Source: an uncultured Planctomycetota bacterium (GTDB lineage Bacteria; Planctomycetota; Planctomycetia; Isosphaerales; Isosphaeraceae). From it: a stretch of DNA of 64,000 nucleotides. Where the stretch lies: contig CAWGMQ010000004.1 of assembly GCA_963823665.1 (NCBI GenBank), forward strand, positions 2,432,001 to 2,496,000, in the 5' to 3' direction. Below are positions 12,164 through 47,440 of the stretch, piece by piece (position 1 is the first letter of the stretch; each line of letters begins with the position of its first letter). The notes beneath the pieces were generated by a model. The model was not told the DNA's origin. It did not search any database and saw nothing but the letters and a program-made list of their open reading frames with translations. The position numbers were made by a program, and so were the translations under genes.

Positions 12164-14795
12164 ATGGGATGCATGGACCGACAGGGATTGGAAATCCGAT
12201 CGAGCATGGCGCCGACGGTCTTCTCGGCACCGGTTTGGACATGGTTCGAGCAGACGTTTCCGCAGGGTGCGACCCCAGCGCAAGAACTGGCGTGGCCGGC
12301 AATCGCCTCGGCTGAAAATGTGCTCCTGATCGCACCGACGGGAACCGGCAAGACGCTTGCTGCTTTCCTGGCCATACTCGACCGGCTATTCCGGTTTGAG
12401 CTGGAGCAAGCGCTTGCGAGCGGCGTTCGGTGCGTCTACGTGTCGCCGCTGCGCAGCCTCAACTATGACATCGAAAGAAACCTGAGATGGCCGCTGGACG
12501 GGATTTGCCAGCAACTTGGACGCCAAGACTGTCCGGTGCACGTCGGTGTGCGAACGGGTGACACATCGGCCTACACGAGGCGTTTGATGCGCGAGCATCC
12601 GCCTCACATCCTGATCACCACGCCCGAGAGTCTCTCGCTGCTACTCAGCCAGGAAACATGGCGGCCGATGTGGCGCGGCCTCGACCACATCATCATCGAC
12701 GAAATCCACGCACTGGCGCCGACAAAACGAGGTGCGGATCTTGCGGTTTCGCTCGAGCGGCTGGCGTCGTACTGTGCGAGTGATCCGATTCGCATCGGGC
12801 TGTCGGCAACGTGCGCCGCAAGCTGAGAATGTCGCTCGATTTCTGGCTGGCCAATCACGTTCTTGCCGGGTGATCACAGCACCGCCGCCGCCGGGAACAC
12901 CGCCGATCCAGATCGATGTGGAGAGCTTGATCTCAGCCGGCGAGGAACCACACCGCGGTCTGAGCTATCGGCGTTTGCTCAAGTGTCTGCGGCGGTCGAT
13001 CAAGAATAACCGCACGACAGTGATCTTCGCCAACACCCGTGCATTTGCGGAAAAGCTGACGCACGACCTGCGGCAGGAGCCATCGCTCTCATCCTCGCCG
13101 GAACCGGTTGTCGTTGCGCACCACTCGGCGCTGGACGCAAACCGCCGGAGAGAGACTGAATCGGCTCTTCGCGAGGGGAAGATCCGAGCTGTTGTCACGA
13201 GTACAAGCCTCGAGCTCGGCGTCGACATCGGCACCGCGGACCTGACGATTCAGATTGGCTCGCCAGGAGGTGTTGGGCGTTGCGTGCAACGTGTGGGACG
13301 GGCGGGCCATCGCCGGGGCGCTCAATCACGCGGGCTGCTAGTGGCGGCAACGCCTGCGGAGCTAGCCGGCGCAGCGGTCACGGCGCAGGCGGCCCGGGCC
13401 GGGCATGTCGAACCGCTGGGGATGGTCAGGGCGCCCCTCGACGTGCTCTGCCAGCAGTTGATCGGAATGGCGTGCAATGGCGACCAGTGCGCGAACGAGG
13501 CGTTTGACCTGATCCGCAATGCGTTGCCGATGGCCGAGCTCCGTCGAGCCGATTTTGACGATTGCATCGATTTCCTGGCGGGTAAGCTTGACACGCCGGC
13601 CGGAGCCGTCGAAGGGGAGAGTGACGCTCTGCCGCGCTGGACTTCGCCGCGGCTGTGGAGCCGCGATGGGTACTTCGGTCTATGCAGCCAACGCGTTGCG
13701 CAGTGGTTCCGGAACAACGTGGGCACAATCCTTTCTGAAGAGACGGTTCGAGTGATCGAACAGGGTGTCGCGATCGGCACACTCGAGGCCGCGTATGCCG
13801 AGCGTCTGGTTCCAGGCGATCGATTTGTGCTTGACGGCCGCGCTCTGGAATTCCGCCGCCTGGAGCGATCGATACTTTTCGCCCGTTCCACAGCGGGCGA
13901 GCCCGCGCTGCCACGCTGGACGAGCACGCGACAATCCCTCTCGTTCGAGCTGGCCCAAGAGCTTGCTCGCTTTCGGAGCGAAGCTGGGCATTGTCTCCTC
14001 AACGACGGGCCATCTGTCCTTCGTTCGTGGCTTGCCCGGGTCATGCAGCTCGATGAGCATGCGTCGGAGGTGCTCGTCGAGTTGTTCGAGGCGCAAGTGC
14101 AGTGGAGTGAGATTCCTTCGGAAGCGGAACTATTCGTCGAACGCTCACCATTGCCCTCCGGACGGGGTTTGATTTACACGTTTCATGCTCCGTTGCACGG
14201 GGCGGCCTGTGAAGCACTTGGACGTGCTGTGGCTGCACGTCTAGGCCAGCAGATCGGCCGCGACTTGACACTGTGCGTCGCCGACCTGGGCTGGTCAATT
14301 CGGACGGGCGAGGACGATGAGTCTTTGCTCTCGGCCGAGTCGATCCGGTCGCTGCTCTCGATTGAAGGCTTTGCTGATGCTGTGCTGCAAGGGGTCGACC
14401 GTGGCGAGCTGCCGGCGCGTCGGTTTCGGCACGTCGCTTCGACGGCGCTCATGGTCCTGCGAAACCCTGAACCTGGGCGCCGCGTGCGGGTGGGCGGGCT
14501 CAACTGGGTGAGTACGCGGCTCTACCCCATGGTCAAGTCAGCCTGCCCCGACCATCCTCTGCTCCGCGAGACACGCCGCGAGGTGCTCGAAGACGTTCTG
14601 GATGTTCCGGCCGCAACGCGCTGGCTGGCAGAACGACGGGAGATTCGAGTTCGGCACTTGCCGGCGCTCTCGCCGTTTGCCGCGGCGTGGATCGAGCAGG
14701 GTGAAGCTGACATCCTTCGCTTTGAATCACCCGAGGCAGCACTCCGCCGGTTACATGCAAGATTGGTCCACAGCGGTCACGAGGCAATCCGATGA
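12164..14795 (+). CDS. lhr: Lhr-family ATP-dependent DEAD/DEAH helicase (Lhr-core size); frameshift near 12820
   Basis: APTGTGKT Walker A, YVSPLRSL, TTPESL, DEIH and LSAT in 12164-12826. HHSAL, TSLELGVDIG and QRVGRAGH in 12732-14795. Confidence 0.85.
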
Positions 14796-35242: not shown

Positions 35243-35944
35243 ATGAGCAACCTCACGATCGAAGTTTGGGACGCCACCGGAAACAAAAAGCAGTTGGTCG
35301 AGCTGCCGGCCGACGCACCGGTCAACCGCGTTATCGCGGTTCTCGTCGAGAAGATGAACCTTCCGAGGTACAGCCCAGACGGACAGTTGATGAGTTATAA
35401 ATTCCACCACAAGGCCAGCGGACGGCAGTTGCTCGACGACCAGACGCTTGCGTCGGCAGATATTCACAACGGCGATGTGTTGCGACTGCAACCGGAAATC
35501 ACGGCAGGCGGTGAAGAAGAGTCTTCGAGAGAGTCGGCGGTCGAGTCGCCACAAGAAGTGAAGGCGTGCCCGTTCTGTGGAGAATGGATCCTGGCCGTTG
35601 CGCGGAAATGCCGCTACTGCGACGAGTATCTCGACCCCGAGCTGCGGCGATCGGCCAGATCTGCTCCCGATGGTCTGGACCGGTTTGTGATTCCGCAGGG
35701 CCGGCCGGCCTCTGCCATCGCGAGCGGGTATCTCGGGCTCTTGTCGCTTTTTCCGTTCATTGGGTTCCCACTCGGAATCGGGGCGCTGATCACGGGCGTG
35801 GTTGCGCTCAAGACGCTGCGTGAGAATCCTCACCTTATCGGCCGGGGAAGGGCCTGGTTCGGACTGATCGTGGGGACCATCGGCACACTCTTCAGTGCGT
35901 TCATGATCGTGGTCATGGTGATCGTCGGCGTCACGAAGCGCTGA
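35243..35944 (+). CDS. Ubiquitin-like (YukD/EsaB-like beta-grasp) domain ending ITAGG, fused to a double zinc ribbon and a DUF4190-like membrane domain
   Basis: 90-aa Ubl pattern (L.D.QTL....I..GDVLRL) with GG at 35507-35512, then CPFC..CRYC and AIASGYLG...GRGRAWFG TM region. Confidence 0.8.
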   Translation: MSNLTIEVWDATGNKKQLVELPADAPVNRVIAVLVEKMNLPRYSPDGQLMSYKFHHKASGRQLLDDQTLASADIHNGDVLRLQPEITAGGEEESSRESAVESPQEVKACPFCGEWILAVARKCRYCDEYLDPELRRSARSAPDGLDRFVIPQGRPASAIASGYLGLLSLFPFIGFPLGIGALITGVVALKTLRENPHLIGRGRAWFGLIVGTIGTLFSAFMIVVMVIVGVTKR

Positions 35945-36019
35945 GCGTGCTCGAAACGAATCCTGGACGAATACTCGGACAACGGGGCACAGTCCGGACC
36001 AGTCGGAAGGACAACGGCG

Positions 36020-37269
36020 TTGAGCGACGTGATCCGGTTGAGCGGCGATGTCCAGGGCGACCTTGACCGCTTCGCGAGGTTCCGGTTGATCAGTTGGTGG
36101 GACCAGGAGCGACTGGCCGCGGCCAAGGTGGTTGTGATCGGCGCGGGGCGCTGGGCAATGAGATCGTCAAGAACCTGGCTCTGCTGGGAGTAGGCCATGT
36201 TTTCGTGGCTGACCGCGATCGGATCGAGCACTCGAACCTATCGCGGTCGATCCTGTTCCGTGAATCGGACTGCGGCCGGCCGAAAGCCCAAGTGGCCGCG
36301 GAGCGGGCTGCAGAGGTTTACCCGTCGATCAAGGTACAGCCCTTTCTGGGAAACATAGTGCACGATCTGGGGGTTGGCATTTACCGCTGGGCCGATGTGA
36401 TTCTGGGAGGACTTGACAATCGCGAAGCCCGGGTCGCGATCAACCACGCGAGCGCCCGGGCGGGGAAGGTCTGGATCGACGGTGCGATCGAGCGTTTAGA
36501 TGGGGTCGCTCGCGTGTTTGACCCGGCGACCGGGCCTTGCTACGAGTGCACGATGGGTGTGAATGACTGGAAGATGCTCGAGGCCCGGCGAAGCTGTGCC
36601 CTGCTCTCTCGAGGGGAAATGGAGCAGGGCAAAGTGCCGACTACCCCCACCACCGCCTCGATTATTGCGGGCATCCAGGTGCAGGAAGCGGTCAAGTATT
36701 TGCACGGGCTCGAGACGATCTCAGGCCAGGGCTTCATTTTCGACGGGACATTTCATCAGAGCTACGTGGTGAGCTACACCCGCAAGGCCGACTGCCCGGC
36801 GCACGACGCCGATCAGCCGGTCGAGCCGCTTTCGCAGAAGGTTGCGTCGACCCGAGTAGGCGATTTGCTCGAGCGAGCGCGGTCGGATCTGGGGAGTGAA
36901 GCGATCATCGAACTGGGGCGGGACCTGCTCCGGTCGCTCCATTGCCCGGCTTGCCGTGAAGACGAGACCGTGTTTGCCTCCCTGGGAAAAATCACGGAAG
37001 CGCGCGGCCGCTGCCCGCGCTGCGGGGAGCCGCGAACTCCTTCCATGTTTCACTCGGTCGACGGCCGCGATTCCGATCTCCTGGAAAAGACCCTGGGCGA
37101 GATCGGCATTCCAGCGTGGGATGTTGTCCACGGCCGTGCCGGGATGGAGCAGCGATTCTACGAGTTTCAAGGCGATTCATCGCTTGTGCTGGGCGTTCTT
37201 GATCATCACCCTCGCTCGAAAGCGACGAGCGGTCCGGACCATCCCGCGATAACAGGTGCGACCTCATGA
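36020..37269 (+). CDS. E1-like ThiF/UBA-family activating enzyme; one-base frameshift in a G run near 36147
   Basis: DRFARFRLISWWDQERL..AKVVVIGAG joins ALGNEIVKNLALLG. Also D.D.IE.SNLSR, DNREAR, GPCYEC, a candidate catalytic Cys in RRSC (36595), CPAH and two further CxxC. Confidence 0.9.
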
Positions 37270-38454
37270 CGGACGAGCGTCCTCAGCCGGAAGAGCTCAC
37301 CGACGTTCGCGTGCTGGCACGCGAGAAACTAACGCATGAAGCATTTCCCGGCGGCCGCAATGAAGGCCTTCGGGTCTTCTTCACGCCGCGGGTGCACGAG
37401 GCGCTCTGGCAGCACGCCGTGTTGGACACGAGCGTCGAGATCTGCGGGGTTCTGGTGGGCACCTGGCATCGCGACGACGCGGGGCCGTTTGTGAAGATCG
37501 TGGAATCGATCCGTGGAGAGGGGGCGGAAACCCGGTTTGCCGAGGTGACGTTCACGCACCAGACCTGGGCCAAGATCAACGCCGAGATGGACACCAAGTT
37601 TTCCAAGCTATCGATCGTCGGCTGGTATCACACGCACCCGGACTTCGGGATTTTCCTGTCGGACCGCGATCGTTTCATCCACGAGCACTTTTTCTCCGGC
37701 CCCGGCCAGGTCGCGCATGTGATCGACCCGATCCGGAAAACCGAAGGGGTCTTCATCTGGCGTGGGGGCAAGCCGAGCCCATGCGAGCATTTCTGGGTCG
37801 GAGACCGAATTCTGGTCGAATCTCCGGGGGGATTTGAACAGTCAAGCGAACTGGAGGCCGGCGGGCGCTCGCATGCGGCGGCAATGCCTGGGCGGGTAGC
37901 CGCCCCGCCGCAGGGGGCAGCGCAGTGCGGCAGCGCCCTCGGGAACGATGCGCGAGTTGTTCCCGGGGCCCGGGCGGTTGATTGCGTACGCGATCGTCTT
38001 TATCCTGGGCTATCTTCTGGCTAGTATACTCTCGGCATGGGAACATCAACGCTTCGTGGAGAGTGTGCTGGCCAGCAACGGGTATATGGCCGTGCTCAGG
38101 CTAGGGCTCGCCGATGAGCTTGACGGGCTTCGCGGCGATCTGGCCGGGATGGTTCGTCCGCTCGAGGCACTGGGATCGAAGACCGACAAGCCGGAGGAGC
38201 AACTCGCCGAGATCCGTGCACAGGTCGTGACGGCACTGCGGCGGACGGATGCAATCAAAGCCCGGTATGGAAACACGTCGGCCGAGGACGACATGCTCAA
38301 ACGCATGCTCCGCGACCTCCGCGACCGCCTGATGGCCCAGCAGCAGCTTCGTTTGCCCGAGATCCCGAATCCAGAAACGTCGCCGCCAAAGGACCGGGCA
38401 AAAGACGACGGCAAAGCGGAGGCTTCCAAGGAAACCGCGACTCCCAAGTCCTGA
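37266..38454 (+). CDS. JAB/MPN+ metalloprotease with a probable C-terminal TM and helical tail; frameshift ~37880-37950
   Basis: EICGVLVG and GWYHTHPDFGIFLSDRD (JAMM motif). Overlapping ORF 37948-38454 supplies TM LIAYAIVFILGYLLASIL and a coiled-coil-like region. Confidence 0.85.
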
Positions 38455-38516
38455 CGAGCAGAACAGCGCCGGGAAACCTCCACTGTCTGAATGCACTGAC
38501 CTACAGGGTTTGGCTC

Positions 38517-39584
38517 ATGTCGACGTCGAGCTCGCGCGAACCGATTCGCCTCACGGCGGATGACCTATTCTCACCCAAGGTCGAAGCCTTCCTTGACGAG
38601 CAGGCTGCGCTCAACCGGGCGCTGCCGGAAACGTCGCCTCAGCCGTTCATTGTTCGGGTCTTGTACTCGAGCTATTTCTATCTGAGCCTGGCGAGTGGGC
38701 TGGGGGCTTTCCTGGGCTGGCTCGTTCTCGAGCCGTTCCTCGATGACAAGCACATGGGGTGGGCCGGGTTTCTTCTGTTTCCAACTGTTGCTGCCTCGAT
38801 CGGAATGTTCCTGGGCGCAGCGGAGGGAATCATGTGCCGCAACGCCCAGCGGGCGGCGATCTGTGCGGCGGTCGGTCTGGGTGTGGGGTTTGTGGGCGGC
38901 ATCGTGTCGGTTTTTCTTGCCACCATCATGTTCACGATCACGTCGGTGATCTCGCTGGCACTCTCAAAGAAACAGCCTCAACCAGGGGAGCTGCCGACGG
39001 GCATGGGATTCCTCGTCTTCATGATGGGGAGGGCCTCGGCGTGGGCGCTCGCAGCGGTTCCGGCCGGCATTGGCCAGGGGATCGCGCTACGTGAACCAAA
39101 GGTGCTGCTCAACGGTCTGCTCGGAGGCGTTCTGGGTGGCCTGCTCGGCGGGATGGCTTTCGACCCGATTTACTTGATGTTCACGTCAAAGGACGGTGAG
39201 GCCTCGCTCAGCCGGGGCATCGGGTTGACCCTGATCGGCCTGATGGTCGGGCTGTTTGTGGGGATGGTCGAGCAATGGACCAAGTCGGCGTGGCTGCTCA
39301 TGAAAGCAGGACCGCTCGCCGGTAAGCAATTCGTTCTGTTCCGCAACCCGACGGTTCTGGGCAGCGCACCCAAGGCGGATGTTTACCTTTTCAAGGACGG
39401 GGCCATCGAGCCGCGACACGCACTGATCCACGATCGCGGCGGCCGTTTCGAAATCGAGGACATGAACACGGCGGACGGAACGTATGTCAACGGCCTGCCG
39501 GTATCCAGGCAGATCCTCAAATCCGGCGATCAGATCGTGCTGGGCAAGACCGTACTCGAGTTTGCACTCAAGGAATCGCGCTAG
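38517..39584 (+). CDS. Polytopic membrane protein with C-terminal FHA domain
   Basis: Gly-rich TM repeats, then LG..P.AD..L....I..RHA, DMNTADGTYVNG and LKSGDQIVLG. Confidence 0.85.
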   Translation: MSTSSSREPIRLTADDLFSPKVEAFLDEQAALNRALPETSPQPFIVRVLYSSYFYLSLASGLGAFLGWLVLEPFLDDKHMGWAGFLLFPTVAASIGMFLGAAEGIMCRNAQRAAICAAVGLGVGFVGGIVSVFLATIMFTITSVISLALSKKQPQPGELPTGMGFLVFMMGRASAWALAAVPAGIGQGIALREPKVLLNGLLGGVLGGLLGGMAFDPIYLMFTSKDGEASLSRGIGLTLIGLMVGLFVGMVEQWTKSAWLLMKAGPLAGKQFVLFRNPTVLGSAPKADVYLFKDGAIEPRHALIHDRGGRFEIEDMNTADGTYVNGLPVSRQILKSGDQIVLGKTVLEFALKESR

Positions 39585-39605
39585 CGTTAATTGTGGAGGG
39601 TCTTA

Positions 39606-40183
39606 TGGCCATTTCCTTTCAGTGTCCTCAATGTGGGAAGAAGCTCAAGGCACCAGACAATGCCGCGGGCAAGTCGTCGAGCTGTCCGGGCTGCGGCAAT
39701 AAGGTGACGTGCCCGGAGCCGGTCTATGACGCCGAAGTCGTCGAGATGGAGATGGCGCCGGATAAACCGAAAGGGTTTGATCCATTCGCAGACATGGACG
39801 ACGACAAACCCTACAAGGTTGCCGGTACCCCACCGCCTACGGAGTCGGCTGATGACGGTCGCCGCCCCTGCCCGATGTGCGGTGAGATGATCGTCGCGAC
39901 GGCTGCCAAATGCCGGTACTGCGGCGAGGTGTTCGACCCGACCCTGAAGAAATCGAAGTCCAAGAAGAAGAAGAAAAGGCACAGTCCGGAAGATGAAGAA
40001 CTTTCTGGTAGCGAAATTGCCGTCGCCATACTTTGCTCAGGCATCGGCTGCATCGCCGGCATCGTCTGGATGATACAGGGAAAACCCAAGGGATTGAAGA
40101 TGGTCGGAATTTCGATCGGCATGGTCATCGTATGGAACATTATCAATGTGGTTATCCGATTTACGTTGTTGAACCAAAACTGA
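39606..40183 (+). CDS. Zinc-ribbon membrane protein
   Basis: CPQC..CPGC, CPMC..CRYC, a poly-Lys stretch and two TM segments. A ggagg RBS lies upstream. Confidence 0.8.
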
Positions 40184-40202
40184 GTGGGAGCGTCGTCGGC
40201 CG

Positions 40203-40928
40203 ATGCCTGCCATTGTTTCCTGTAACTGCGGTGCCCGAATCAAGGTGCCTGAAGGAGCGCGGCCGGATGCCATGCTTCGGTGCCCGCGCTGCAAGGCCGA
40301 GATTGTGCTGGCCGGCGAGGGCCGGATCGTCACCGCGAAACTGGCCGATCCCGCGACGATGGGAGGAATCTGCGCGGTATGTCAGTCGGCCGTGAGCCCT
40401 GGGGAGGCCGTGCTGGCTTGCCCCAGTTGCGACCAGTTGCATCATCGCGAGTGCTGGAACGAAGTGGGCGGGTGTGCAACGTACGGCTGCGAGAATGCGC
40501 CGGCAACGGAAAAAGCGGCCGCGTTCGAGGCACCACGGACTGCATGGGGTGAAACCAAGAAGTGCCCCGCCTGCGGCGAGACGATCAAATCGATTGCTCT
40601 GCGCTGCCGTTACTGCGGCACCGATTTCGACACGGTTGATCCCCTCACGCTCAAGGACCTTAAAAAGCAGGTTGTGGGCGAGGAACGGCTGCAGACGACA
40701 AAAACGCTGGTGATCCTGTTTTTCGTGCTCAGTGTGCTGGGCTGCCCAGCCCCGATCGTGGTGGTTGCCGCCTCCTGCTACGTGCTGCTCAAGCACAAGA
40801 CCGTTGCCAAGGCCGGGCCGGCCTATCTGGTCATGGGCTATTCCGCGATCGCGATCTCCGCTTTATATTCGATATTATTCTTGTTGTTCTTTATCGGCTC
40901 ACAGATGGGAACAGCTCGCGCCCCGTAG
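40203..40928 (+). CDS. Prokaryotic RING-finger (Prok-RING_1-like) membrane protein, candidate E3
   Basis: C-x2-C-x12-C-x2-C-x3-HH-x2-CW-x5-C-x4-C at 40371-40490, flanked by zinc ribbons, with C-terminal TMs. Confidence 0.8.
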   Translation: MPAIVSCNCGARIKVPEGARPDAMLRCPRCKAEIVLAGEGRIVTAKLADPATMGGICAVCQSAVSPGEAVLACPSCDQLHHRECWNEVGGCATYGCENAPATEKAAAFEAPRTAWGETKKCPACGETIKSIALRCRYCGTDFDTVDPLTLKDLKKQVVGEERLQTTKTLVILFFVLSVLGCPAPIVVVAASCYVLLKHKTVAKAGPAYLVMGYSAIAISALYSILFLLFFIGSQMGTARAP

Positions 40929-41013
40929 GCGACGGGCTCGAGCGACGGGCCAGGGGCATCAAATCGTTACAACCTTGCCCGAGCGGGAGCCAGACCGTAA
41001 GGAGATCATTCCG

Positions 41014-42387
41014 TTGGACGCGGCAGGCGCGAGGTCATTGATCGCTTGTCCACGCGAGGTGGGCGCGGAGTGCCCTCACTGCGCGGCCGACGTCGTGCTG
41101 GGCGACCCGATCATGGTCTGCCAGGCGTGTGGGACGGTTCACCATCGGGCATGCTGGCGGGTTCATGATCGGTGCGGGGCCTATGCATGCGCGCCCGGGC
41201 GGCGTGACTCACCCGAGCCACGGCACTCCGACGCGGTTTTGACGATCACCCAAGCCGAGATCGAGCGCGCGGTGCCGCTGGCTCCCGCGATTCGTCCCAT
41301 GTTCGGCGCCCAGAGTCCAGGTGGCGGGGCGTTTCCGCCCCCGGTGCCGACCCGCGCGGGCTGGAACGGCCTGGCGATTGCTTCGTTCATCTGTGCTCTC
41401 GCGGGCATTCCGCTTTTTGGACTCATCACCGGGATGGTCGCGGTTGTGCTGGCCGTCATTGCGCTCGGCGCGATCCGGGCCAGCTCACAGCGCGGGCTGG
41501 GGCTGGCGCTCGGAGGCCTGTTGCTCGGTTTGGTGGACGTGGTGGGGTGGATTGCGCTCATTGTGATGCTGCTGCCTGGGTTTTTTAGTCGCGAACTGCC
41601 GGCGGACCTGCACTTTTCGGAGGCACCGCCGGATCTTTCCGCGATCCGGGAGCTTGCGCCGCCGCTCCAGCGCGCGATGAGAGCCAATGTGCTGATCGAG
41701 CGGCACACCGGGATTGCCGCGCTGGGCGGTAAGGCTGTCGGCTCGGGAGTGATCTTGCAACTGAGCGACGGCGAAGCCCTGATCGTCACGAACCGGCATG
41801 TCGTCGATGACGAATTCCCTGCGTCGCACAACGATGCCGCTCAAGCCGACCATCTCACCCGGCTCGGCAAGATGTCGGTCACGTTGCTGGACCAGCCGAA
41901 ACTTGAAGGCCAAGTCGTCTGGCTTGCTCCCGGGCAAATCGACCTGGCGATGATCCGCGTTCGCTGCAGTCCGTCCGGTCAGGCGAGGGATGCTGCGTGG
42001 GAGCGAGGCCGGCCCATGAAGGTGGGGGAGACGGTTTTCGCGATCGGCAATCCCTATCAGCTCGGCTGGACGCACACGCAGGGTGTGATTTCACAGATGC
42101 GCTCCCAGGATTTCGACTTGCATCGCGTGCGGGTGATCCAGATGCAGGCGGCGATCAACCCCGGCAACAGCGGTGGGGGTCTTTACGACAGCGACGGCTA
42201 TTTGCTCGGCATCAATACGTGGACAGCCGACAAGAGCGTGAGTGAAGGAATCGGCTTTGCGATTGCGCTCGACAGCCTGCTCGAGCTGGCCCCGCCGCCG
42301 CTTGCGCCGCGGCCGGAGAAACCAACGGCGGCACCGGCGGAGAAAACCCCCTCCAAGACAGCTCACACCAAGAGAAGCGCGCCATGA
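41014..42387 (+). CDS. RING finger + DUF4190-like TM + trypsin-like (HtrA-type) serine protease fusion
   Basis: Same RING spacing at 41071-41190, GLAIASF TM block, catalytic triad motifs TNRHV / DLA / GNSGG. An aaggag RBS precedes TTG 41014. Confidence 0.85.
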   Translation: MDAAGARSLIACPREVGAECPHCAADVVLGDPIMVCQACGTVHHRACWRVHDRCGAYACAPGRRDSPEPRHSDAVLTITQAEIERAVPLAPAIRPMFGAQSPGGGAFPPPVPTRAGWNGLAIASFICALAGIPLFGLITGMVAVVLAVIALGAIRASSQRGLGLALGGLLLGLVDVVGWIALIVMLLPGFFSRELPADLHFSEAPPDLSAIRELAPPLQRAMRANVLIERHTGIAALGGKAVGSGVILQLSDGEALIVTNRHVVDDEFPASHNDAAQADHLTRLGKMSVTLLDQPKLEGQVVWLAPGQIDLAMIRVRCSPSGQARDAAWERGRPMKVGETVFAIGNPYQLGWTHTQGVISQMRSQDFDLHRVRVIQMQAAINPGNSGGGLYDSDGYLLGINTWTADKSVSEGIGFAIALDSLLELAPPPLAPRPEKPTAAPAEKTPSKTAHTKRSAP

Positions 42388-43136
42388 GCACGGTCCGCCT
42401 GCGACGGCTGCACGCCGATTACGAGAAGATCCAGGAATACATCAAGGGGCATCCAAGGCTCCAGTTGATTCAGGTCGATGGGTCGCCGCCGGAGCGCTAT
42501 CAACTCGAGTATCGGATTCGCGGATTGCGCCAGACGGCCGACGAGCTGTCGATCGTGAAGAGCCACATGGTGGAAGTTTCGCTGCCGGTTAGCTATCCGC
42601 GGCTGCCGCCGCAATGCCGGATGCTCACGCCGATCTTCCATCCTAACATAGCACCCCATGCGATCTGCATCGGCGACCACTGGAGCCCAGGAGAGCCGCT
42701 GTGGTCGATCGTGGCGCGAATCGGCGAGATGATCGCCTACCAGAGCTACAACACCAAGAGCCCCTTGAACGGCGAGGCCGCACGATGGGTCGACCAGCAT
42801 GTGGATGAGCTGCCACTCGACCCAGTAAGCATGATGCCCGACGACGCGATGGCCTCCAGTGCCGGCGCGCCAGCTTCACGGCCGGCGGCAGCCACTTCAG
42901 CGACAAATTCACCGCGGCCGTCTGCCCAGGTCAGGCCAACGCCGGGCGTGCCGCCAACCTCACGGCCGGTGGAAAGTCACACGCGACCAGAGGCCTCACC
43001 TCCGCCGGTGCCATCACCGGTCGGCAGTGAATTCGCCTGCCCGCAATGTGGGGCCTTATTGAAGTTGAAACCGGAGCTGGCCGGGAAGCAAGTGCGATGC
43101 CTTCGTTGCAAGACGGTGTTTCGGATTCCGCTCTGA
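42384..43136 (+). CDS. E2 ubiquitin-conjugating (UBC-fold) enzyme with C-terminal zinc ribbon
   Basis: RLRRLHADY, YPRLPP, TPIFHPNI....IC (Cys at 42666), WSP and SPLNGEAA, then a Pro-rich linker and CPQC..CLRC. Confidence 0.9.
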   Translation: MSTVRLRRLHADYEKIQEYIKGHPRLQLIQVDGSPPERYQLEYRIRGLRQTADELSIVKSHMVEVSLPVSYPRLPPQCRMLTPIFHPNIAPHAICIGDHWSPGEPLWSIVARIGEMIAYQSYNTKSPLNGEAARWVDQHVDELPLDPVSMMPDDAMASSAGAPASRPAAATSATNSPRPSAQVRPTPGVPPTSRPVESHTRPEASPPPVPSPVGSEFACPQCGALLKLKPELAGKQVRCLRCKTVFRIPL

Positions 43137-43609
43137 TAAGCGAGCTTCCTCTGGAAGAGGAAGACGATGCGCCGGCGCGCGCCCGGCGCCGGATGAAACG
43201 CCACCGCGAGGTGCTGCTGATCTCATGCGCTGTCTGGCTTCTGGCTTTCTCGCTGCATGAGCTTCCCGACGGGCGCGTCGCGGTGCGCGGATTACCGCAA
43301 TTTCCGTTACCTCAGACATGCATGTCGCGGGCGATTTTTGGCCTGCGGTGCCCGGGCTGCGGGCTGACGCGATCGATCATTCATCTGGCACACGGTGACT
43401 GGCGGGCTTCGTGGCATGACCACCGGCTGGGCGGTCTGCTCGGGATCGTGATCGCGCTCCAGATCCCTTACCGGCTTTACGCGCTACGGAGACCTGAGCA
43501 AGAGGTGCTGCCCTCGCGCTGGCAGGCTGCGATGGGATATGCGCTGATTGGTCTTCTCTTGGCGAACTGGCTGTTGGATGTGGCGGCGGGGCGGTTGCGG
43601 TCGCCATAA
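43097..43609 (+). CDS. DUF2752-like small membrane protein (start uncertain)
   Basis: C......G..CPGCGLTRS motif and three TM segments. Confidence 0.75.
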   Translation: MPSLQDGVSDSALISELPLEEEDDAPARARRRMKRHREVLLISCAVWLLAFSLHELPDGRVAVRGLPQFPLPQTCMSRAIFGLRCPGCGLTRSIIHLAHGDWRASWHDHRLGGLLGIVIALQIPYRLYALRRPEQEVLPSRWQAAMGYALIGLLLANWLLDVAAGRLRSP

Positions 43610-43663: not shown

Positions 43664-45220
43664 ATGCCCAGCGTCGATTCTGTGCCGGAGCCAAATCCCT
43701 TGCGAGAAGGATTGCCCCGGACGCGGGTGTCTGAGCCCTGCGTAATTGTCCTCTTCGGTGCGACCGGCGACCTGGCCCATCGCAAGCTCGTGCCGGCACT
43801 CTTTCAGCTTGCCCGAGGTGGGAATCTTCCATCCGAATGCGCGGTGATCGGATTCGCGCGTCGTCCCTGGACGGACAACGATTTACGAGCCGAGTACGAA
43901 AAAACGCTGTCGAAAGAAGGCGGTTCCGACTTTTCCGAGGTCTGGTCGCAATTCGCCAACCGCATCATTTTCTCCCCCGGCACATTCGATGACCCGGCCT
44001 CATTCCGAACCTTGAAGGAGACTCTCGCACGCGTCGACCGGACGCACGGAACCGCCGGGAACCGGGTCTACTACCTGGCCGTATCACCTGAGTTTTTTGC
44101 GCCGATCATCGCGAACCTGGGCGAGGCGGGGCTGATTTATCCCTCTCAGCAGGAGACGCCGTGGAGCCGGGTGGTCATCGAGAAGCCGTTCGGCCGCGAT
44201 CTCGAAAGCGCCCGTGACTTGAACAAGGCCGTGTCGGCCGTTCTGGATGAAAGCCAGGTCTACCGCATCGACCATTATCTCGGTAAGGAAACCGTTCAGA
44301 ACATCCTGGCGCTGCGATTCGGCAACAGCATTTTCGAGCCGGTCTGGAACCGGCGGCACGTGGCCTCGGTGCAGGTCACTGTTGCCGAGGAGGTGGGCAT
44401 GGCCGGGGGCCGGGGGGCCTATTACGATACGGCCGGGGCCCTGCGCGACATGGTCCAGAACCACATGATGCAGCTTCTCTGCCTGGTGGCGATGGAGCCG
44501 CCGGTTGATCTCTCGGCCGATGCCGTTCGCAATGAGAAAGTGAAGGTGCTGCAAGCGCTCCCACGGTGGAACGCTGCGGATGTGGTTCGCAACGTGGTAC
44601 GAGCGCAGTACCTGAAGGGCTCGATCCAGGGAGCCGAGGTTCCCGGTTATCTCGAGGAAAAAGGAGTCGCTCCGGGTTCCAGGACCGACACGTATGTTGC
44701 GATCCGGCTGGAGCTGAATACCTGGCGGTGGGCGGGGGTTCCCTTTTTTCTTCGCACCGGGAAACGGCTGCCCAAGCGGGCGACGGAGATCGCCATCCAG
44801 TTCAATCGGCCGCCGACCGAGCTTTTTGAGGTCGACCCGCGGCGGGGCCCGGGCGGCACCAATCAGCTTGTGCTGCGGATTCAGCCGAACGAGGGGGCAA
44901 GTTTGACCTTTGAGGCCAAGGTGCCCGGCTCGCGCCGGCGTTTGCAGGAAGTGCGGATGGATTTCCGATATGGGACCGCATTTGCCCTCCCGCCTCCCGA
45001 GGCTTACGAACGGTTGCTGCTGGACGCGATGCTGGGTGATCCCACGCTCTATACACGAACCGACGAGGTGGAGAGTGCCTGGCGATTCGCATCGGCCATT
45101 TTAAATGCTTGGAATCAGGCCGATGCTCCGCCGCCGGTTTCCTATACGGCGGGAAGCTGGGGGCCGGAGGAGGCGGATGCCTTGATTGCGGCGGATAGAG
45201 GTCGCTGGCGCTGGTTGTGA
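43664..45220 (+). CDS. zwf: Glucose-6-phosphate 1-dehydrogenase
   Basis: FGATGDLA, EKPFG, RIDHYLGKE, RDMVQNH and RTGKRL. Confidence 0.97.
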   Translation: MPSVDSVPEPNPLREGLPRTRVSEPCVIVLFGATGDLAHRKLVPALFQLARGGNLPSECAVIGFARRPWTDNDLRAEYEKTLSKEGGSDFSEVWSQFANRIIFSPGTFDDPASFRTLKETLARVDRTHGTAGNRVYYLAVSPEFFAPIIANLGEAGLIYPSQQETPWSRVVIEKPFGRDLESARDLNKAVSAVLDESQVYRIDHYLGKETVQNILALRFGNSIFEPVWNRRHVASVQVTVAEEVGMAGGRGAYYDTAGALRDMVQNHMMQLLCLVAMEPPVDLSADAVRNEKVKVLQALPRWNAADVVRNVVRAQYLKGSIQGAEVPGYLEEKGVAPGSRTDTYVAIRLELNTWRWAGVPFFLRTGKRLPKRATEIAIQFNRPPTELFEVDPRRGPGGTNQLVLRIQPNEGASLTFEAKVPGSRRRLQEVRMDFRYGTAFALPPPEAYERLLLDAMLGDPTLYTRTDEVESAWRFASAILNAWNQADAPPPVSYTAGSWGPEEADALIAADRGRWRWL

Positions 45221-46105: not shown

Positions 46106-46264
46106 ACCGCCCTGCCCTGCATTGCCGGTCTGGCTTGAAGTGAAGACTTTTCGCGGACGCCGGTTGGACCCTTAGCTCGGAGCCGAACGGACTGCTATGC
46201 TACGAGGAACGGAATCGAGACTCAACGCGTTCGCTCTGATCCCGATCGATTGGAGTTTTGGTTC

Positions 46265-47440
46265 ATGACCGATGCAACCACCGCACCACTGATTGACGGC
46301 CTGGGAATTCCGGTTGAGCTTCGCAACGTCGAGGCTGAGCTTGCCAGGCTGTGGGGGCCGGCGGCGCTCGAGCTGAGCGGATCGGAGCAGGAGAGCGCGC
46401 ACGTTACACGCGTGGTGCTGGCCAACCTCGTGCTCGAGTGTCTGGACCAGGACGTGCAGGCGCTCGAACCTGTGCTGGCAATGGTCGTGGAACGGTTTCC
46501 ATGCCGGACGATCGTGCTCTGCAAGTCGGACGACCCTGCTCGAAAGGTCACGGCCCAGATCTCGGCGCTGTGTCATTTGCCATCGCCGGGGCAACCACAA
46601 GTTTGCTCCGAGCAGATCGTGCTGCGTGCAGGACCGAACGCGATCGATCTTCTTCCTGGGGCCGTGCGGTCGCTGCTGGAGGCTGACCTACCACATGTGC
46701 TTTGGTGGACGAGCGATCCCAGGAAGCATCCAGCGCTGTTGCACGACCTTGCTCAAGCCTGCTCGCGGCTGATCCTGGACCTGAGCGATCGCTGCACGGA
46801 TGCCGAAGCGCTGCGGGCGGGACTCGATGAATCTCACGGCAGTTCCAGTCACGATAGCGTGTGGTTTGGTCTCACCCGTTGGCGCGAGCTGGTCGCGCAG
46901 TTCTTCGATCGTCCTGGTCATGACGAAAAGCTGGCGACGATTGAGTCGGTGGTTGTCGAGGCTGTTGCGCCCGATCCAACGTGCCCGACACGCCTGGCCG
47001 TCTGGCTGGTGGCGTGGCTGGCGGGGCAGCTTCGGTGGAAACCGCAAGGCCACCCTGAACGCCGGCCGGGTGCCGATTCTACTTGTGAGCTCTCTGCCCG
47101 CTTTAATGGTGCACGAGGCGAGGTGTCTGTTCGGATTGTGACGCGTGCGATCCCTGCGGGATGCCCGGCAGCACCGCAGATAGCGGCGGTGACCATCAAG
47201 ACGAAACCGCTTGCTGGAGATGCCAGCTCAGCGGAGACCGATCGACTCGTACGGCCGTGGCCGGGCTCGCCGGCTGTGCTGGTCGAGACCGAAGCAGGTG
47301 GACTGGGCCGATTGCCACGTGGGGTTGATGCCCCCGAGCTTGATGTGGCGCACCGGATTGCGGCGGCACTCGAATCGTCGCGCATTGATGAGCCTTTTCG
47401 GAAGGCGGTTCCTGTTGCAGTCTGGCTGCTGGGATCGTGA
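46265..47440 (+). CDS. opcA: G6PD assembly protein OpcA
   Basis: VEAELARLW, FPCRTI, CSEQI, LLEADLP..LWW and W..LT.WRELVAQFFD; located near zwf. Confidence 0.85.
   Translation: MTDATTAPLIDGLGIPVELRNVEAELARLWGPAALELSGSEQESAHVTRVVLANLVLECLDQDVQALEPVLAMVVERFPCRTIVLCKSDDPARKVTAQISALCHLPSPGQPQVCSEQIVLRAGPNAIDLLPGAVRSLLEADLPHVLWWTSDPRKHPALLHDLAQACSRLILDLSDRCTDAEALRAGLDESHGSSSHDSVWFGLTRWRELVAQFFDRPGHDEKLATIESVVVEAVAPDPTCPTRLAVWLVAWLAGQLRWKPQGHPERRPGADSTCELSARFNGARGEVSVRIVTRAIPAGCPAAPQIAAVTIKTKPLAGDASSAETDRLVRPWPGSPAVLVETEAGGLGRLPRGVDAPELDVAHRIAAALESSRIDEPFRKAVPVAVWLLGS

What the first reader, a model, noticed from the sequence alone, without database searches (positions are those of the whole stretch)
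35243..43609. Complete membrane-associated ubiquitination-like operon (Ubl, E1, JAB, FHA, two RINGs, E2)
Seen: nine tightly packed or overlapping + strand genes encode a GG-bearing Ubl, an E1 with nucleotide-binding motif and candidate catalytic Cys, a JAMM protease, an FHA membrane protein, two RING-type proteins, an HPN-motif E2 and a DUF2752-like protein. Seven of the nine products have predicted TM segments. Established: Ubl-E1-E2-RING-JAB is the eukaryotic conjugation logic, and comparative genomics has predicted such operons in some bacteria including planctomycetes. The characterised bacterial systems I know of (CBASS Cap2/Cap3, Bil/Bub) lack RING E3s. Inference: an E3-dependent conjugation pathway acting at the inner membrane (ERAD-like quality control, envelope-stress signalling or defence). 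To my knowledge this architecture has not been experimentally characterised.
Basis: partly seen in the sequence, partly recalled or inferred. Interest (0 to 1): 0.92.

Follow-up and report, generated by a model that had tools for sequence, protein, structure and literature searches.

The report
Membrane-bound bacterial ubiquitin-like tagging operon
A planctomycete carries nine linked genes for a ubiquitin-style protein-tagging kit anchored in the inner membrane, including a ligase-type finger joined to an outward-facing protease; operons of this general kind were predicted by computer in 2011, and I found no bench study of them.

Summary
The operon is real. Pfam confirms a YukD-type Ubl, E1, JAB, TM-FHA, zinc-ribbon-TM, two Prok-RING_1 proteins, E2 and DUF2752. 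The core set recurs in 37 of 80 related Planctomycetota loci, with near-invariant catalytic residues. It is a new member of a class predicted computationally in 2011; this scan has seen the type in other genomes.

Corrections:
(1) The conserved Ubl end is Ala-Gly (40 of 40), not GG; the variable tail is probably removed by JAB.
(2) The second RING protein carries an intact HtrA/DegS-like protease, probably periplasmic.
(3) The FHA has lost its three phosphothreonine-binding residues.
(4) E1 and JAB each have a one-base frame break here, probably assembly error.
(5) The genome holds a second, paralogous system, near-core in the family; this one is accessory (19 of 86).

An E2-RING co-fold passed (0.70, best control 0.01; mark reached by 116 of 157 solved, 2 of 215 mismatched pairs; possibly from memory). 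The finger's fold ties RING, C1 and PHD. Most likely role: membrane signalling or protein turnover, not defence.

The parts
35243..35509 (+). YukD-type ubiquitin-like domain, residues 1-89, ending in the invariant Ala-Gly (predicted mature C-terminus)
   Evidence: Pfam YukD 43.5 bits; last six residues invariant in 40 of 40 loci, next residue variable, stop in 3; median identity 80% over 37 loci, the highest of the operon
35510..35944 (+). In-frame tail of the Ubl ORF: zinc ribbon plus DUF4190 membrane anchor; predicted to be released by JAB
   Evidence: DUF4190 32.2 bits, below its cut-off of 35; same fusion in L004, L006, L019 and in most of the 120 listed longer homologues; a separate gene in L058, L067, L071, L077
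36020..37269 (+). E1 (ThiF/UBA3-like adenylation domain, candidate catalytic Cys 16 residues after the CxxC, C-terminal probable UFD with a zinc-ribbon insert); frame break at 36146-36149 in the GxGxxG codons
   Evidence: ThiF 158 bits; Cys in 39 of 40; best PDB sequence hits UBA3, UBA7, SAE2; model of the intact L004 copy pLDDT 88 aligns 309 residues (4-372) to 2nvu_B, Z 28.8, rmsd 7.5; both parts in one frame in 37 of 40 relatives; window lacks one G against L004
37266..38454 (+). JAB/JAMM peptidase with a TM helix and helical C-terminal tail (probably periplasmic); frame break near 37918-37924
   Evidence: JAB 45.7 bits; E, H, H, S, D of the JAMM motif invariant in 40-41 loci; one open frame with the tail in 18 of 21 loci; TM after the domain in 31 of 41; low-depth contigs of related organisms in two runs lack one base at 37924
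38517..39584 (+). Multi-TM protein with a C-terminal FHA domain whose phosphothreonine-binding Arg, Ser and Asn are replaced by Ser, Glu and Asp
   Evidence: FHA 51.4 bits; alignment to GarA/OdhI; S in 46 of 46, E in 47 of 47, D in 46 of 48; FHA median identity 77%
39605..40183 (+). Double zinc-ribbon, Lys-rich linker, two-TM protein; variable copy number; candidate substrate or adaptor (inferred)
   Evidence: DZR 27.5 bits; 0-4 copies between FHA and RING1, two or more in 14 of 47 loci; K:R 288:197 in the 40 residues before the TM of 58 proteins, against 33:190 in 47 RING2 proteins
40203..40928 (+). Zinc ribbon - Prok-RING_1 (C4HC3) - zinc ribbon - two TM: candidate E3 number 1
   Evidence: Prok-RING_1 39.5 bits; eight Zn ligands and the Trp invariant in 66-68 aligned loci; co-fold with E2 0.70 against best control 0.01, mark reached by 116 of 157 solved and 2 of 215 mismatched pairs
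41014..42387 (+). Prok-RING_1 - DUF4190 membrane segment - HtrA/DegS-like serine protease, no PDZ found (start uncertain, 40975-41014): candidate E3 number 2 fused to a probably periplasmic protease
   Evidence: Prok-RING_1 38.3, DUF4190 41.8, Trypsin_2 69.7 bits; His/Asp/Ser invariant in 67-69 loci; one open frame in 46 of 64 loci; best PDB hits Deg1, Deg8, DegS; charge bias points to N-in, C-out
42384..43136 (+). E2 (UBC fold, HPN motif, Cys95) with a low-complexity linker and C-terminal zinc ribbon
   Evidence: UQ_con 43.4 bits; H86, P87, N88, C95 in 80 of 80; 139 distinct PDB sequences hit at E<=0.001; the 60 listed are eukaryote-type E2s
43097..43609 (+). DUF2752 membrane protein with three invariant Cys (start uncertain, 43046-43193)
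   Evidence: DUF2752 62.3 bits; three Cys in 66 of 66
43664..45220 (+). Flank, not part of the system: glucose-6-phosphate dehydrogenase (zwf), followed by opcA at 46250-47440
   Evidence: G6PD_C 400 bits, OpcA 86 bits; zwf-like cluster beside the operon in 12 loci and opcA-like cluster in 14 loci, all within L004-L017

Best explanation
An accessory, membrane-tethered ubiquitin-like conjugation pathway used for inner-membrane signalling or protein turnover. (1) JAB cuts the Ubl precursor after Ala-Gly89, freeing the tag and, here, a zinc-ribbon membrane protein (strongly implied by sequence evolution, not shown). (2) E1 adenylates the Gly and forms a thioester, then hands the tag to E2 Cys95 (residues shown conserved; chemistry inferred from eukaryotic, archaeal and Bil cascades). 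(3) The two membrane-anchored C4HC3 fingers bind E2~Ubl as RING-type E3s and direct transfer to lysines on the cytoplasmic face of membrane proteins (E2 binding supported by a model only). The Lys-rich zinc-ribbon-TM proteins of the operon are the best substrate candidates (inferred). (4) The HtrA-like domain on the far side of the membrane senses or clips envelope proteins, coupling a periplasmic event to tagging, somewhat as DegS starts RseA destruction (inferred; DegS role recalled). (5) Membrane-bound JAB reverses the mark, and the charge-reversed FHA acts as a phosphate-independent adaptor (inferred). The outcome is a change in interactions or removal by a bacterial AAA+ protease, not a 20S proteasome.
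For: All enzymatic residues near-invariant over 39-80 loci. Ala-Gly invariant with a variable next residue in 40 loci and in 115 of 120 longer homologues (A 35, L 21, G 17, S 15, others), with fusions to DUF4190, to E1 itself or to TIR. JAB cleavage of Ubl precursors is shown for BubAB (PMC11601596 passages) and C. subterraneum pro-ubiquitin (PMC5654768 passages). E2-RING1 co-fold 0.70 against best of 3 controls 0.01; the mark was reached by 116 of 157 solved and 2 of 215 mismatched pairs (only roughly applicable: own alignments, zinc riding along); runs agree in at least 98% of contacts, partner pLDDT at least 86. The interface uses E2 residues 2-15, 72-73 and 99-105, the helix-1/loop-4/loop-7 face (the face assignment is my recalled knowledge). 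Window-type E2 and Ubl occur in the same 19 of 86 family genomes, and the FHA in 17 of those 19 and none of the other 67, also where the operon is split. Fixed housekeeping neighbourhood beside zwf/opcA in close relatives. Of 82 longer E2 relatives scanned (of 150 listed), fusions were to zinc ribbons, DUF4190 (6), FHA (4), Ser/Thr kinase (2), TPR and an Ig-like domain; no nuclease or toxin domain reached E<=1e-5.
Against: No biochemical or expression data. The finger's fold does not separate RING from C1 or PHD (best Z 4.8 for a C1 domain, RINGs at 4.2-4.4, none at 5 or more; no Foldseek match at E<=0.001; best sequence hits are PHD fingers). The co-fold may reflect memory of solved RING-E2 complexes. 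Topology rests on hydropathy and charge bias only. In this assembly E1 and JAB are frame-broken, and no contig of the same strain covers either break. Patchy presence (19 of 86 in the family; 40 of 401 in the phylum for any E2 paralogue) also fits defence systems. All characterised bacterial relatives are immune or immune-associated (PMC10557695, PMC11601596 passages). Some in-family copies are more divergent (55-74%) than copies from other families, which hints at transfer.
Confidence: 0.5

Rival explanations
1. Anti-phage or anti-parasite system: the same cascade tags incoming or assembling phage proteins at the membrane, or primes the HtrA-like protease as an effector.
For: CBASS Cap2 and Bil are anti-phage, and uncharacterised families are predicted to be (PMC10557695 passages). 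Aravind-group papers tie prokaryotic Ubl/RING systems to conflict systems (PMC3417536 section 17; PMC7159879 passages). Patchy distribution. One related tandem-Ubl protein is fused to TIR (P0076). Variable copy number of the zinc-ribbon-TM genes.
Against: PADLOC gives only weak domain-level hits for E1, JAB and the protease (at most 39 bits) and none for the other 10 of 13 proteins, four flanks included. Fixed position beside zwf/opcA in 12-14 close relatives; the recurrent flank proteins I scanned (six representatives) were metabolic, kinase or unknown-function families. Very high conservation (Ubl 80%, FHA 77%, E2 74% median). A concatenated tree of 26 loci groups Isosphaerales-like and Pirellulales loci separately, though labels are coarse and deep nodes weak.
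Confidence: 0.25
2. Conjugation works without a true E3. The fingers are C1/PHD-like lipid- or protein-binding sensors, and E2 picks targets itself, as in Bil.
For: Ligand spacing C-x2-C-x12-C-x2-C-x4-H-x2-C-x6-C-x4-C is closer to PHD/C1 than to a canonical RING (canonical spacings recalled). Structural search ranks C1 domains first by a margin under 1 Z. Bil E2s are proposed to recognise targets directly (PMC11601596 passage).
Against: Co-fold passes on the canonical E3-binding face of the E2 (0.70 against best control 0.01; 116 of 157 solved, 2 of 215 mismatched). Invariant Trp after the sixth ligand and a hydrophobic residue between the first two Cys in the consensus. RING genes stay next to E2 when the operon splits. 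The paralogous locus also has a Prok-RING_1 beside Ubl and E2.
Confidence: 0.15
3. In this particular organism the operon is decaying: the E1 and JAB breaks are real, and the paralogous system about 230 kb away (or nothing) supplies activity.
For: Two frame breaks in nine genes, one in the ATP-binding loop. An intact paralogous E1 (42% identical) exists in the genome.
Against: The E1 break is a single base in a G run, and the JAB break lies in or next to one. No excess of window-specific substitutions against the same-genus copy (E1 11 vs 9 and 11 vs 14; JAB 0 vs 8 and 1 vs 5). No stops elsewhere, all catalytic residues kept. 11 of 80 related loci show similar scattered breaks, all in one series of long-contig MAG assemblies.
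Confidence: 0.08
4. Sulfur-carrier or cofactor pathway (ThiS/ThiF-like) rather than protein tagging.
For: The E1 adenylation domain matches MoeB/ThiF (Z 30.4, rmsd 2.1 over 223 residues); JAB also matures sulfur carriers (recalled).
Against: Invariant E2 with HPN and Cys; no biosynthetic or sulfurtransferase gene in the operon; far below all NCBIfam ThiF/MoeB cut-offs; C-terminal domain closer to E2-binding UFDs (lead only).
Confidence: 0.02

Closest known systems
Prokaryotic Ubl-E1-E2-RING-JAB operons predicted by Burroughs, Iyer and Aravind 2011 (Mol Biosyst 7:2261; Pfam Prok-RING_1 PF14446). Paper not held; known to me through PMC4197634, PMC3417536 and PMC10557695 passages and recall
   Same: All five components in one operon in a planctomycete; both fingers above the Prok-RING_1 cut-off; described as uncharacterised and sporadic (PMC4197634).
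   Different: I could not check whether the RING-TM-HtrA fusion, the charge-reversed FHA, the Ala-Gly precursor fusions or the two paralogous subtypes were described there. Arcas et al. 2013 on planctomycete E2s was also not held (title and citing sentence only).
Caldiarchaeum subterraneum Ub-E1-E2-srfp(RING)-Rpn11 operon (reconstituted; PMC5654768 passages)
   Same: Minimal cascade with a RING E3 and a JAMM enzyme that removes a C-terminal pro-peptide.
   Different: True ubiquitin with di-Gly and a small RING-H2 there (PMC11354881 passage for RING-H2). Here a YukD-type tag ending Ala-Gly, C4HC3 fingers on membrane anchors, a fused serine protease and no 20S proteasome found.
Bil (BilABCD) anti-phage systems
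   Same: Cys-dependent E1 and E2, JAB-processed Ubl.
   Different: Bil has a tandem IAD-AAD-CYS E1 and no predicted E3; only a weak PADLOC BilD hit here (E 6e-6); this E1 has one adenylation domain.
Bub type I/II
   Same: Ubl made as a fusion and cut by JAB after a conserved Gly; the operon includes a serine protease.
   Different: Bub uses Tyr/Ser oxyesters and a DUF6527 protease; here the Cys residues are invariant and the protease is HtrA-type.
FtsH-ternary conflict systems with a Ubl-E2 fusion, JAB, E1 and prokaryotic RING (PMC7159879 passages)
   Same: Tri-ligase set with a prokaryotic RING; JAB proposed to release the Ubl from a multidomain protein.
   Different: No MoxR, vWA, FtsH, EAD1 or caspase gene in this operon.
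DegS/HtrA envelope proteases; eukaryotic PA-TM-RING ligases such as RNF13 (functional analogy, recalled)
   Same: Protease domain closest to Deg1/Deg8/DegS; an outward-facing domain linked through the membrane to a cytoplasmic finger.
   Different: No PDZ found; PA domains are not catalytic (recalled); no homology is claimed.

Membership tests
Prok-RING_1 Ubl-E1-E2-RING-JAB operon (Burroughs 2011 class) | Ubl with a C-terminal Gly | tested here: met
   YukD above cut-off; Ala-Gly in 40 of 40
Prok-RING_1 Ubl-E1-E2-RING-JAB operon (Burroughs 2011 class) | E1 with nucleotide-binding motif and a catalytic-position Cys | tested here: met
   ThiF 158 bits; Cys 39 of 40; intact frame in 37 of 40 relatives, frame-broken in this assembly
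Prok-RING_1 Ubl-E1-E2-RING-JAB operon (Burroughs 2011 class) | UBC-fold E2 with HPN and Cys | tested here: met
   80 of 80; eukaryote-type E2s are the PDB hits
Prok-RING_1 Ubl-E1-E2-RING-JAB operon (Burroughs 2011 class) | Prok-RING_1 finger(s) and a JAB peptidase in the same operon | tested here: met
   39.5 and 38.3 bits vs cut-off 29.1; JAMM motif invariant
Prok-RING_1 Ubl-E1-E2-RING-JAB operon (Burroughs 2011 class) | Exact architectures as drawn in the 2011 paper | not testable with these tools
   Paper not held
RING-type E3 ligase | RING cross-brace fold distinct from PHD and C1 | tested here: inconclusive
   Model pLDDT 70; C1, RING and PHD tie at Z 3.4-4.8; no Foldseek hit at E<=0.001
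RING-type E3 ligase | Binds the E2 on its helix-1/loop-4/loop-7 face | tested here: met
   Model only: 0.70 against best control 0.01; mark reached by 116 of 157 solved and 2 of 215 mismatched pairs; may be from memory of solved complexes
RING-type E3 ligase | Stimulates Ubl transfer from E2 | not testable with these tools
   Needs biochemistry
Bil (type I/II) | Tandem IAD-AAD-CYS E1 and no E3 | tested here: not met
   Single adenylation domain; two Prok-RING_1 genes; BilD profile E 6e-6 only; definition from PMC11601596
Bub (type I/II) | E1 and E2 without catalytic Cys; DUF6527 gene | tested here: not met
   Cys invariant; no DUF6527 hit among the operon proteins
Type II CBASS Cap2/Cap3 | E2-E1 fusion beside a CD-NTase | tested here: not met
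   Separate E1 and E2; no CD-NTase hit in the operon or the scanned flanks
HtrA/DegS serine protease | Trypsin fold with His-Asp-Ser triad | tested here: met
   67-69 loci invariant; Deg1, Deg8, DegS best hits; below NCBIfam whole-protein cut-offs
HtrA/DegS serine protease | C-terminal PDZ domain | tested here: not met
   No PDZ hit; only about 30 residues follow the protease domain
Phosphothreonine-binding FHA | Arg (GR), Ser (SxxH) and Asn (NGT) of the pThr pocket (roles recalled) | tested here: not met
   Ser 46 of 46, Glu 47 of 47, Asp 46 of 48 at these positions; GarA/OdhI carry R, S, N in the alignment
ERAD-type pathway | 20S proteasome or Pup-proteasome downstream | tested here: not met
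   Only PF00227 match is HslV; no PF03136 match; genome 92% complete, so 'not found' rather than absent
ERAD-type pathway | Cdc48/p97-like extraction ATPase | not tested
   No search run

The most novel reading that the evidence does not exclude
The RING-TM-HtrA protein is a one-chain transmembrane switch: its periplasmic protease senses or cuts envelope proteins, and its cytoplasmic finger acts as a true E3 that attaches the Ala-Gly tag to the Lys-rich zinc-ribbon membrane proteins. A charge-reversed FHA reads the tag or the basic substrate tails. This would be an E3-dependent, non-immune ubiquitin signalling pathway across a bacterial membrane, running beside a second, core Ubl system in the same cell.
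Probability: 0.25. Interest if true: 0.88.

Novelty: new member of a known kind. Interest (0 to 1): 0.55.

Why it matters
In the papers I read, RING-dependent transfer was reconstituted for an archaeal operon (PMC5654768), while the characterised bacterial cascades have no E3 (Bil: PMC11601596 passage). My seven searches found no bench study of a bacterial RING operon; subscription journals are mostly not covered. This system has near-invariant catalytic residues, a clear mature tag (residues 1-89), soluble testable parts and cultured hosts (Aquisphaera giovannonii proteins; Lacipirellula limnantheis locus L067). It therefore makes it directly testable whether bacteria use E3 ligases, and for something other than phage defence. 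The result bears on where the three-enzyme cascade arose.

Tried and rejected

Sequencing runs: no RNA holder listed. DNA holders shared at most 0.18 of the words. Same-strain-like contigs (0 differences) cover parts of the operon, but none listed bridges either frame break, so the breaks were not settled by reads.

Promoter scan: 0 sigma-70 sites (shuffle mean 1.6); 12 terminator-like sites vs 6.6 +/- 2.4, mostly inside genes; not used.

Fold search of the finger: no library row separates RING, C1 and PHD. The E1 C-terminal domain was not folded alone; the Atlas gave only leads under 0.9 (E2_bind 0.78, UAE_UbL 0.76).

'GG-ended Ubl', 'phospho-sensing FHA', ThiS/MoaD-type sulfur transfer, and membership in Bil, Bub or CBASS were considered and rejected (see membership tests). 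I suspected that the Ubl-DUF4190 fusion was itself a frameshift artefact; rejected, because most of 120 independent longer homologues have it.

Look-ups of earlier findings by sequence and by genome returned nothing. PMC7203096 had no match for my terms in the 300,000 characters held. One search returned only general ubiquitin papers, none with DUF4190 among the 12 listed. No supplements were read; those of Bil/Bub papers and of the 2011 paper could list this operon type.

Full report
1. Observation. ORF listing, sequence and Pfam scan confirm nine + strand genes from 35243 to 43609: Ubl(YukD)-zinc ribbon-DUF4190; E1 (ThiF); JAB with a TM tail; multi-TM FHA; double zinc ribbon-TM; zinc ribbon-Prok-RING_1-zinc ribbon-TM; Prok-RING_1-DUF4190-trypsin; E2-zinc ribbon; DUF2752. 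GC content matches the rest of the window. The genome has 16.5 Mb in 12 contigs and is 92% complete; relatives place it among Isosphaeraceae-like Planctomycetota.

2. Conservation. The E2 query confirmed 235 relatives in the GTDB species collection; the 80 kept are all titled as Planctomycetota. Domain-wise tblastn over these 80 loci found the protease in 69, RING1 in 68, DUF2752 in 66, FHA in 48, JAB in 41, and Ubl and E1 in 40 each (the two RING queries cross-hit, and many loci are cut short). 37 hold Ubl, E1, JAB, FHA, RING, protease and E2 together, in nearly the same order in the rows I could see (output partly cut). Key residues: E2 HPN and Cys95 80 of 80; JAMM E/H/H/S/D 40-41 of 40-41; protease H/D/S 67-69 of 67-69; all eight finger ligands; E1 candidate Cys 39 of 40. 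Because loci were chosen as the best E2 matches, they are related and not independent.

3. The tag ends in Ala-Gly and is made as a precursor. In 40 loci the last six residues are invariant, while the next position holds ten different residues or a stop (G 9, S 9, A 6, R 5, stop 3, others), and tails run from 0 to 144 residues. A search for longer homologues listed 120 of 140 hits; 115 carry the motif, again with a variable next residue. Fusion partners are DUF4190 membrane proteins (most), the E1 itself (about 473 aa), and in one case TIR behind tandem Ubls. The simplest reading is that read-through is tolerated because JAB cuts after the Gly with no preference beyond it. This is inference, with precedents in BubAB (PMC11601596, passages) and C. 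subterraneum pro-ubiquitin (PMC5654768, passages). The GG in this genome is incidental.

4. Frame breaks. The E1 N-terminal piece and the rest are in one frame in 37 of 40 relatives; JAB and its tail form one open frame in 18 of 21. Against the same-genus locus L004 the window has one G fewer in a G run at 36146-36149 and one extra base near 37918. Low-depth contigs of related organisms in two runs also lack a base at 37924 (single contigs under depth 5 may err). A relative-rate count shows no extra decay of E1 or JAB, and 11 of 80 loci have similar scattered breaks, all in one series of long-contig MAGs. Assembly error is likely but not proven.

5. Enzymes. The E2's 60 listed PDB matches are eukaryote-type E2s. 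The E1's best sequence matches are UBA3, UBA7 and SAE2. A model of the intact L004 copy (pLDDT 88) ranks UBA3 first by Foldseek and aligns over residues 4-372 to the UBA3-Ubc12 complex chain (Z 28.8, rmsd 7.5, 309 residues), close to MoeB for the adenylation domain alone (Z 30.4, rmsd 2.1, 223 residues). A C-terminal UFD is thus likely; the Atlas lead agrees but is under 0.9. All NCBIfam ThiF/MoeB cut-offs are missed.

6. Are the fingers E3s? By fold, unresolved: the model (pLDDT 70) ties C1, RING and PHD domains. By co-folding, E2(1-149) with RING1 scored 0.70 against a best control of 0.01. The mark was reached by 116 of 157 solved and 2 of 215 mismatched pairs; these counts apply only roughly, since my own alignments and zinc were used. 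Runs agree in at least 98% of contacts and partner pLDDT is at least 86. The interface lies on E2 residues 2-15, 72-73 and 99-105. RING-E2 complexes are solved, so the pass may be from memory; it shows likeness, not binding. RING2 was not co-folded.

7. The protease fusion. RING, DUF4190 and protease lie in one open frame in 46 of 64 loci and in most of the 120 listed homologues. The protease is closest to Deg1, Deg8 and DegS; no PDZ was found. Over 47 sequences the charges are basic before the hydrophobic block (K+R 3.0), basic in the loop after a helical hairpin (2.6) and acidic after the last helix (D+E 3.5). By the positive-inside rule the finger is cytoplasmic and the protease periplasmic (inference). 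JAB has a TM after its domain in 31 of 41 loci.

8. The FHA is a pseudo-FHA. Aligned to GarA/OdhI, the pocket Arg, Ser and Asn are Ser (46 of 46), Glu (47 of 47) and Asp (46 of 48), yet the domain is as conserved as the E2 (77% vs 74% median). It probably binds something basic rather than phosphothreonine (pocket roles recalled). The zinc-ribbon-TM genes vary from 0 to 4 copies and have Lys-rich juxtamembrane linkers (K:R 288:197 in 58 proteins vs 33:190 in 47 RING2 controls), so they are candidate acceptors (inference).

9. Distribution and context. In the family, 76 of 86 genomes have an E2 match, but only 19 have the window type (55% identity or more). The same 19 carry the window-type Ubl, and 17 of them, and none of the other 67, carry the FHA. 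The near-core paralogue is represented in this genome by a second locus about 230 kb away: TM-RING, Ubl (also Ala-Gly plus a 3-residue tail), E2, E1, JAB-TM, M48 peptidase. In a phylum sample 40 of 401 genomes match. Close relatives keep the operon beside zwf/opcA. PADLOC shows only weak domain hits. E2 relatives fuse to zinc ribbons, DUF4190, FHA and kinases (82 of 150 scanned). The only proteasome-family gene found is HslV; no Pup ligase was found. A 26-locus tree is roughly taxonomic with weak deep nodes, while a few divergent in-family copies hint at transfer.

10. What is known. PMC4197634 (passages) states that Actinobacteria, Planctomycetes and Acidobacteria carry related uncharacterised operons, citing Burroughs 2011, which I could not read. 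PMC10557695 (passages) and PMC11601603 (passages) mention bacterial operons with predicted E3s that remain uncharacterised. PMC3417536 (section 17) proposes selfish, restriction-modification-like behaviour. PMC7159879 (passages) describes RING-bearing Ubl systems in conflict operons. PMC11354881 (passages) notes the C4HC3 pattern of prokaryotic RINGs. PMC8382908 (passages) cites planctomycete E2s (Arcas 2013, not held). Seven searches found no experimental study. Earlier notes of this scan describe the same operon type in other planctomycete genomes; my reading was entered before I saw them, and they are not used as support.

11. Verdict. A real, well conserved operon and a new member of a computationally predicted, apparently untested kind. 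My odds: working thioester cascade in this family about 0.85; RING-dependent about 0.65; membrane signalling or turnover as the role about 0.5, defence about 0.25. I could not verify that these are absent from the 2011 and 2013 papers. Interest 0.55.

Noticed in passing
L084:10763-17741 (G000:C4 about 2700762-2707740): Second ubiquitin-like locus in the same genome: TM-Prok-RING_1, a small helical ORF, YukD Ubl (12327-12629, Ala-Gly plus 3 residues), E2, intact E1, JAB with TM/coiled coil, M48 membrane peptidase. This paralogue type appears near-core in the family.
   Followed up: partly
P0094, P0100, P0103, P0107 and others: Ubl fused in frame to its own E1 (about 470-520 aa) with the Ala-Gly kept at residue 89 in most; the tag would have to be cut off its activating enzyme.
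   Followed up: partly
P0076: Armatimonadota protein with two related YukD domains followed by a TIR_2 domain; a possible immune-type use of the same tag.
   Followed up: no
P0262, P0387, P0321, P0331: E2 relatives fused to FHA domains, two also to Ser/Thr kinases; several of these FHAs keep the GR and SRxH motifs, unlike the operon's FHA.
   Followed up: partly
L021, L024, L026, L027, L030-L033; G420, G421, G422, G426, G446: Operon split or rearranged: the RING/protease/E2/DUF2752 half apart from the Ubl/E1/JAB/FHA half, or E2 with DUF2752 alone; in the family genomes both halves are kept.
   Followed up: partly
window:32226-32771 (+): Another small zinc-ribbon plus two-TM ORF about 2.5 kb upstream, with only weak Pfam hits; may belong to the same protein class.
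   Followed up: no
window:33497-35179 (-): Divergent upstream multi-TM protein with no Pfam or PADLOC hit, conserved beside the operon in L004-L006; its C-terminus may also be frame-shifted.
   Followed up: no
window:45233-46105 (-): 290-aa membrane protein inserted between zwf and opcA, no Pfam hit, found in five related loci.
   Followed up: no
window:48615-50351 (-): 578-aa ORF with short internal repeats near its C-terminus and reversed GC skew; no PADLOC hit.
   Followed up: no
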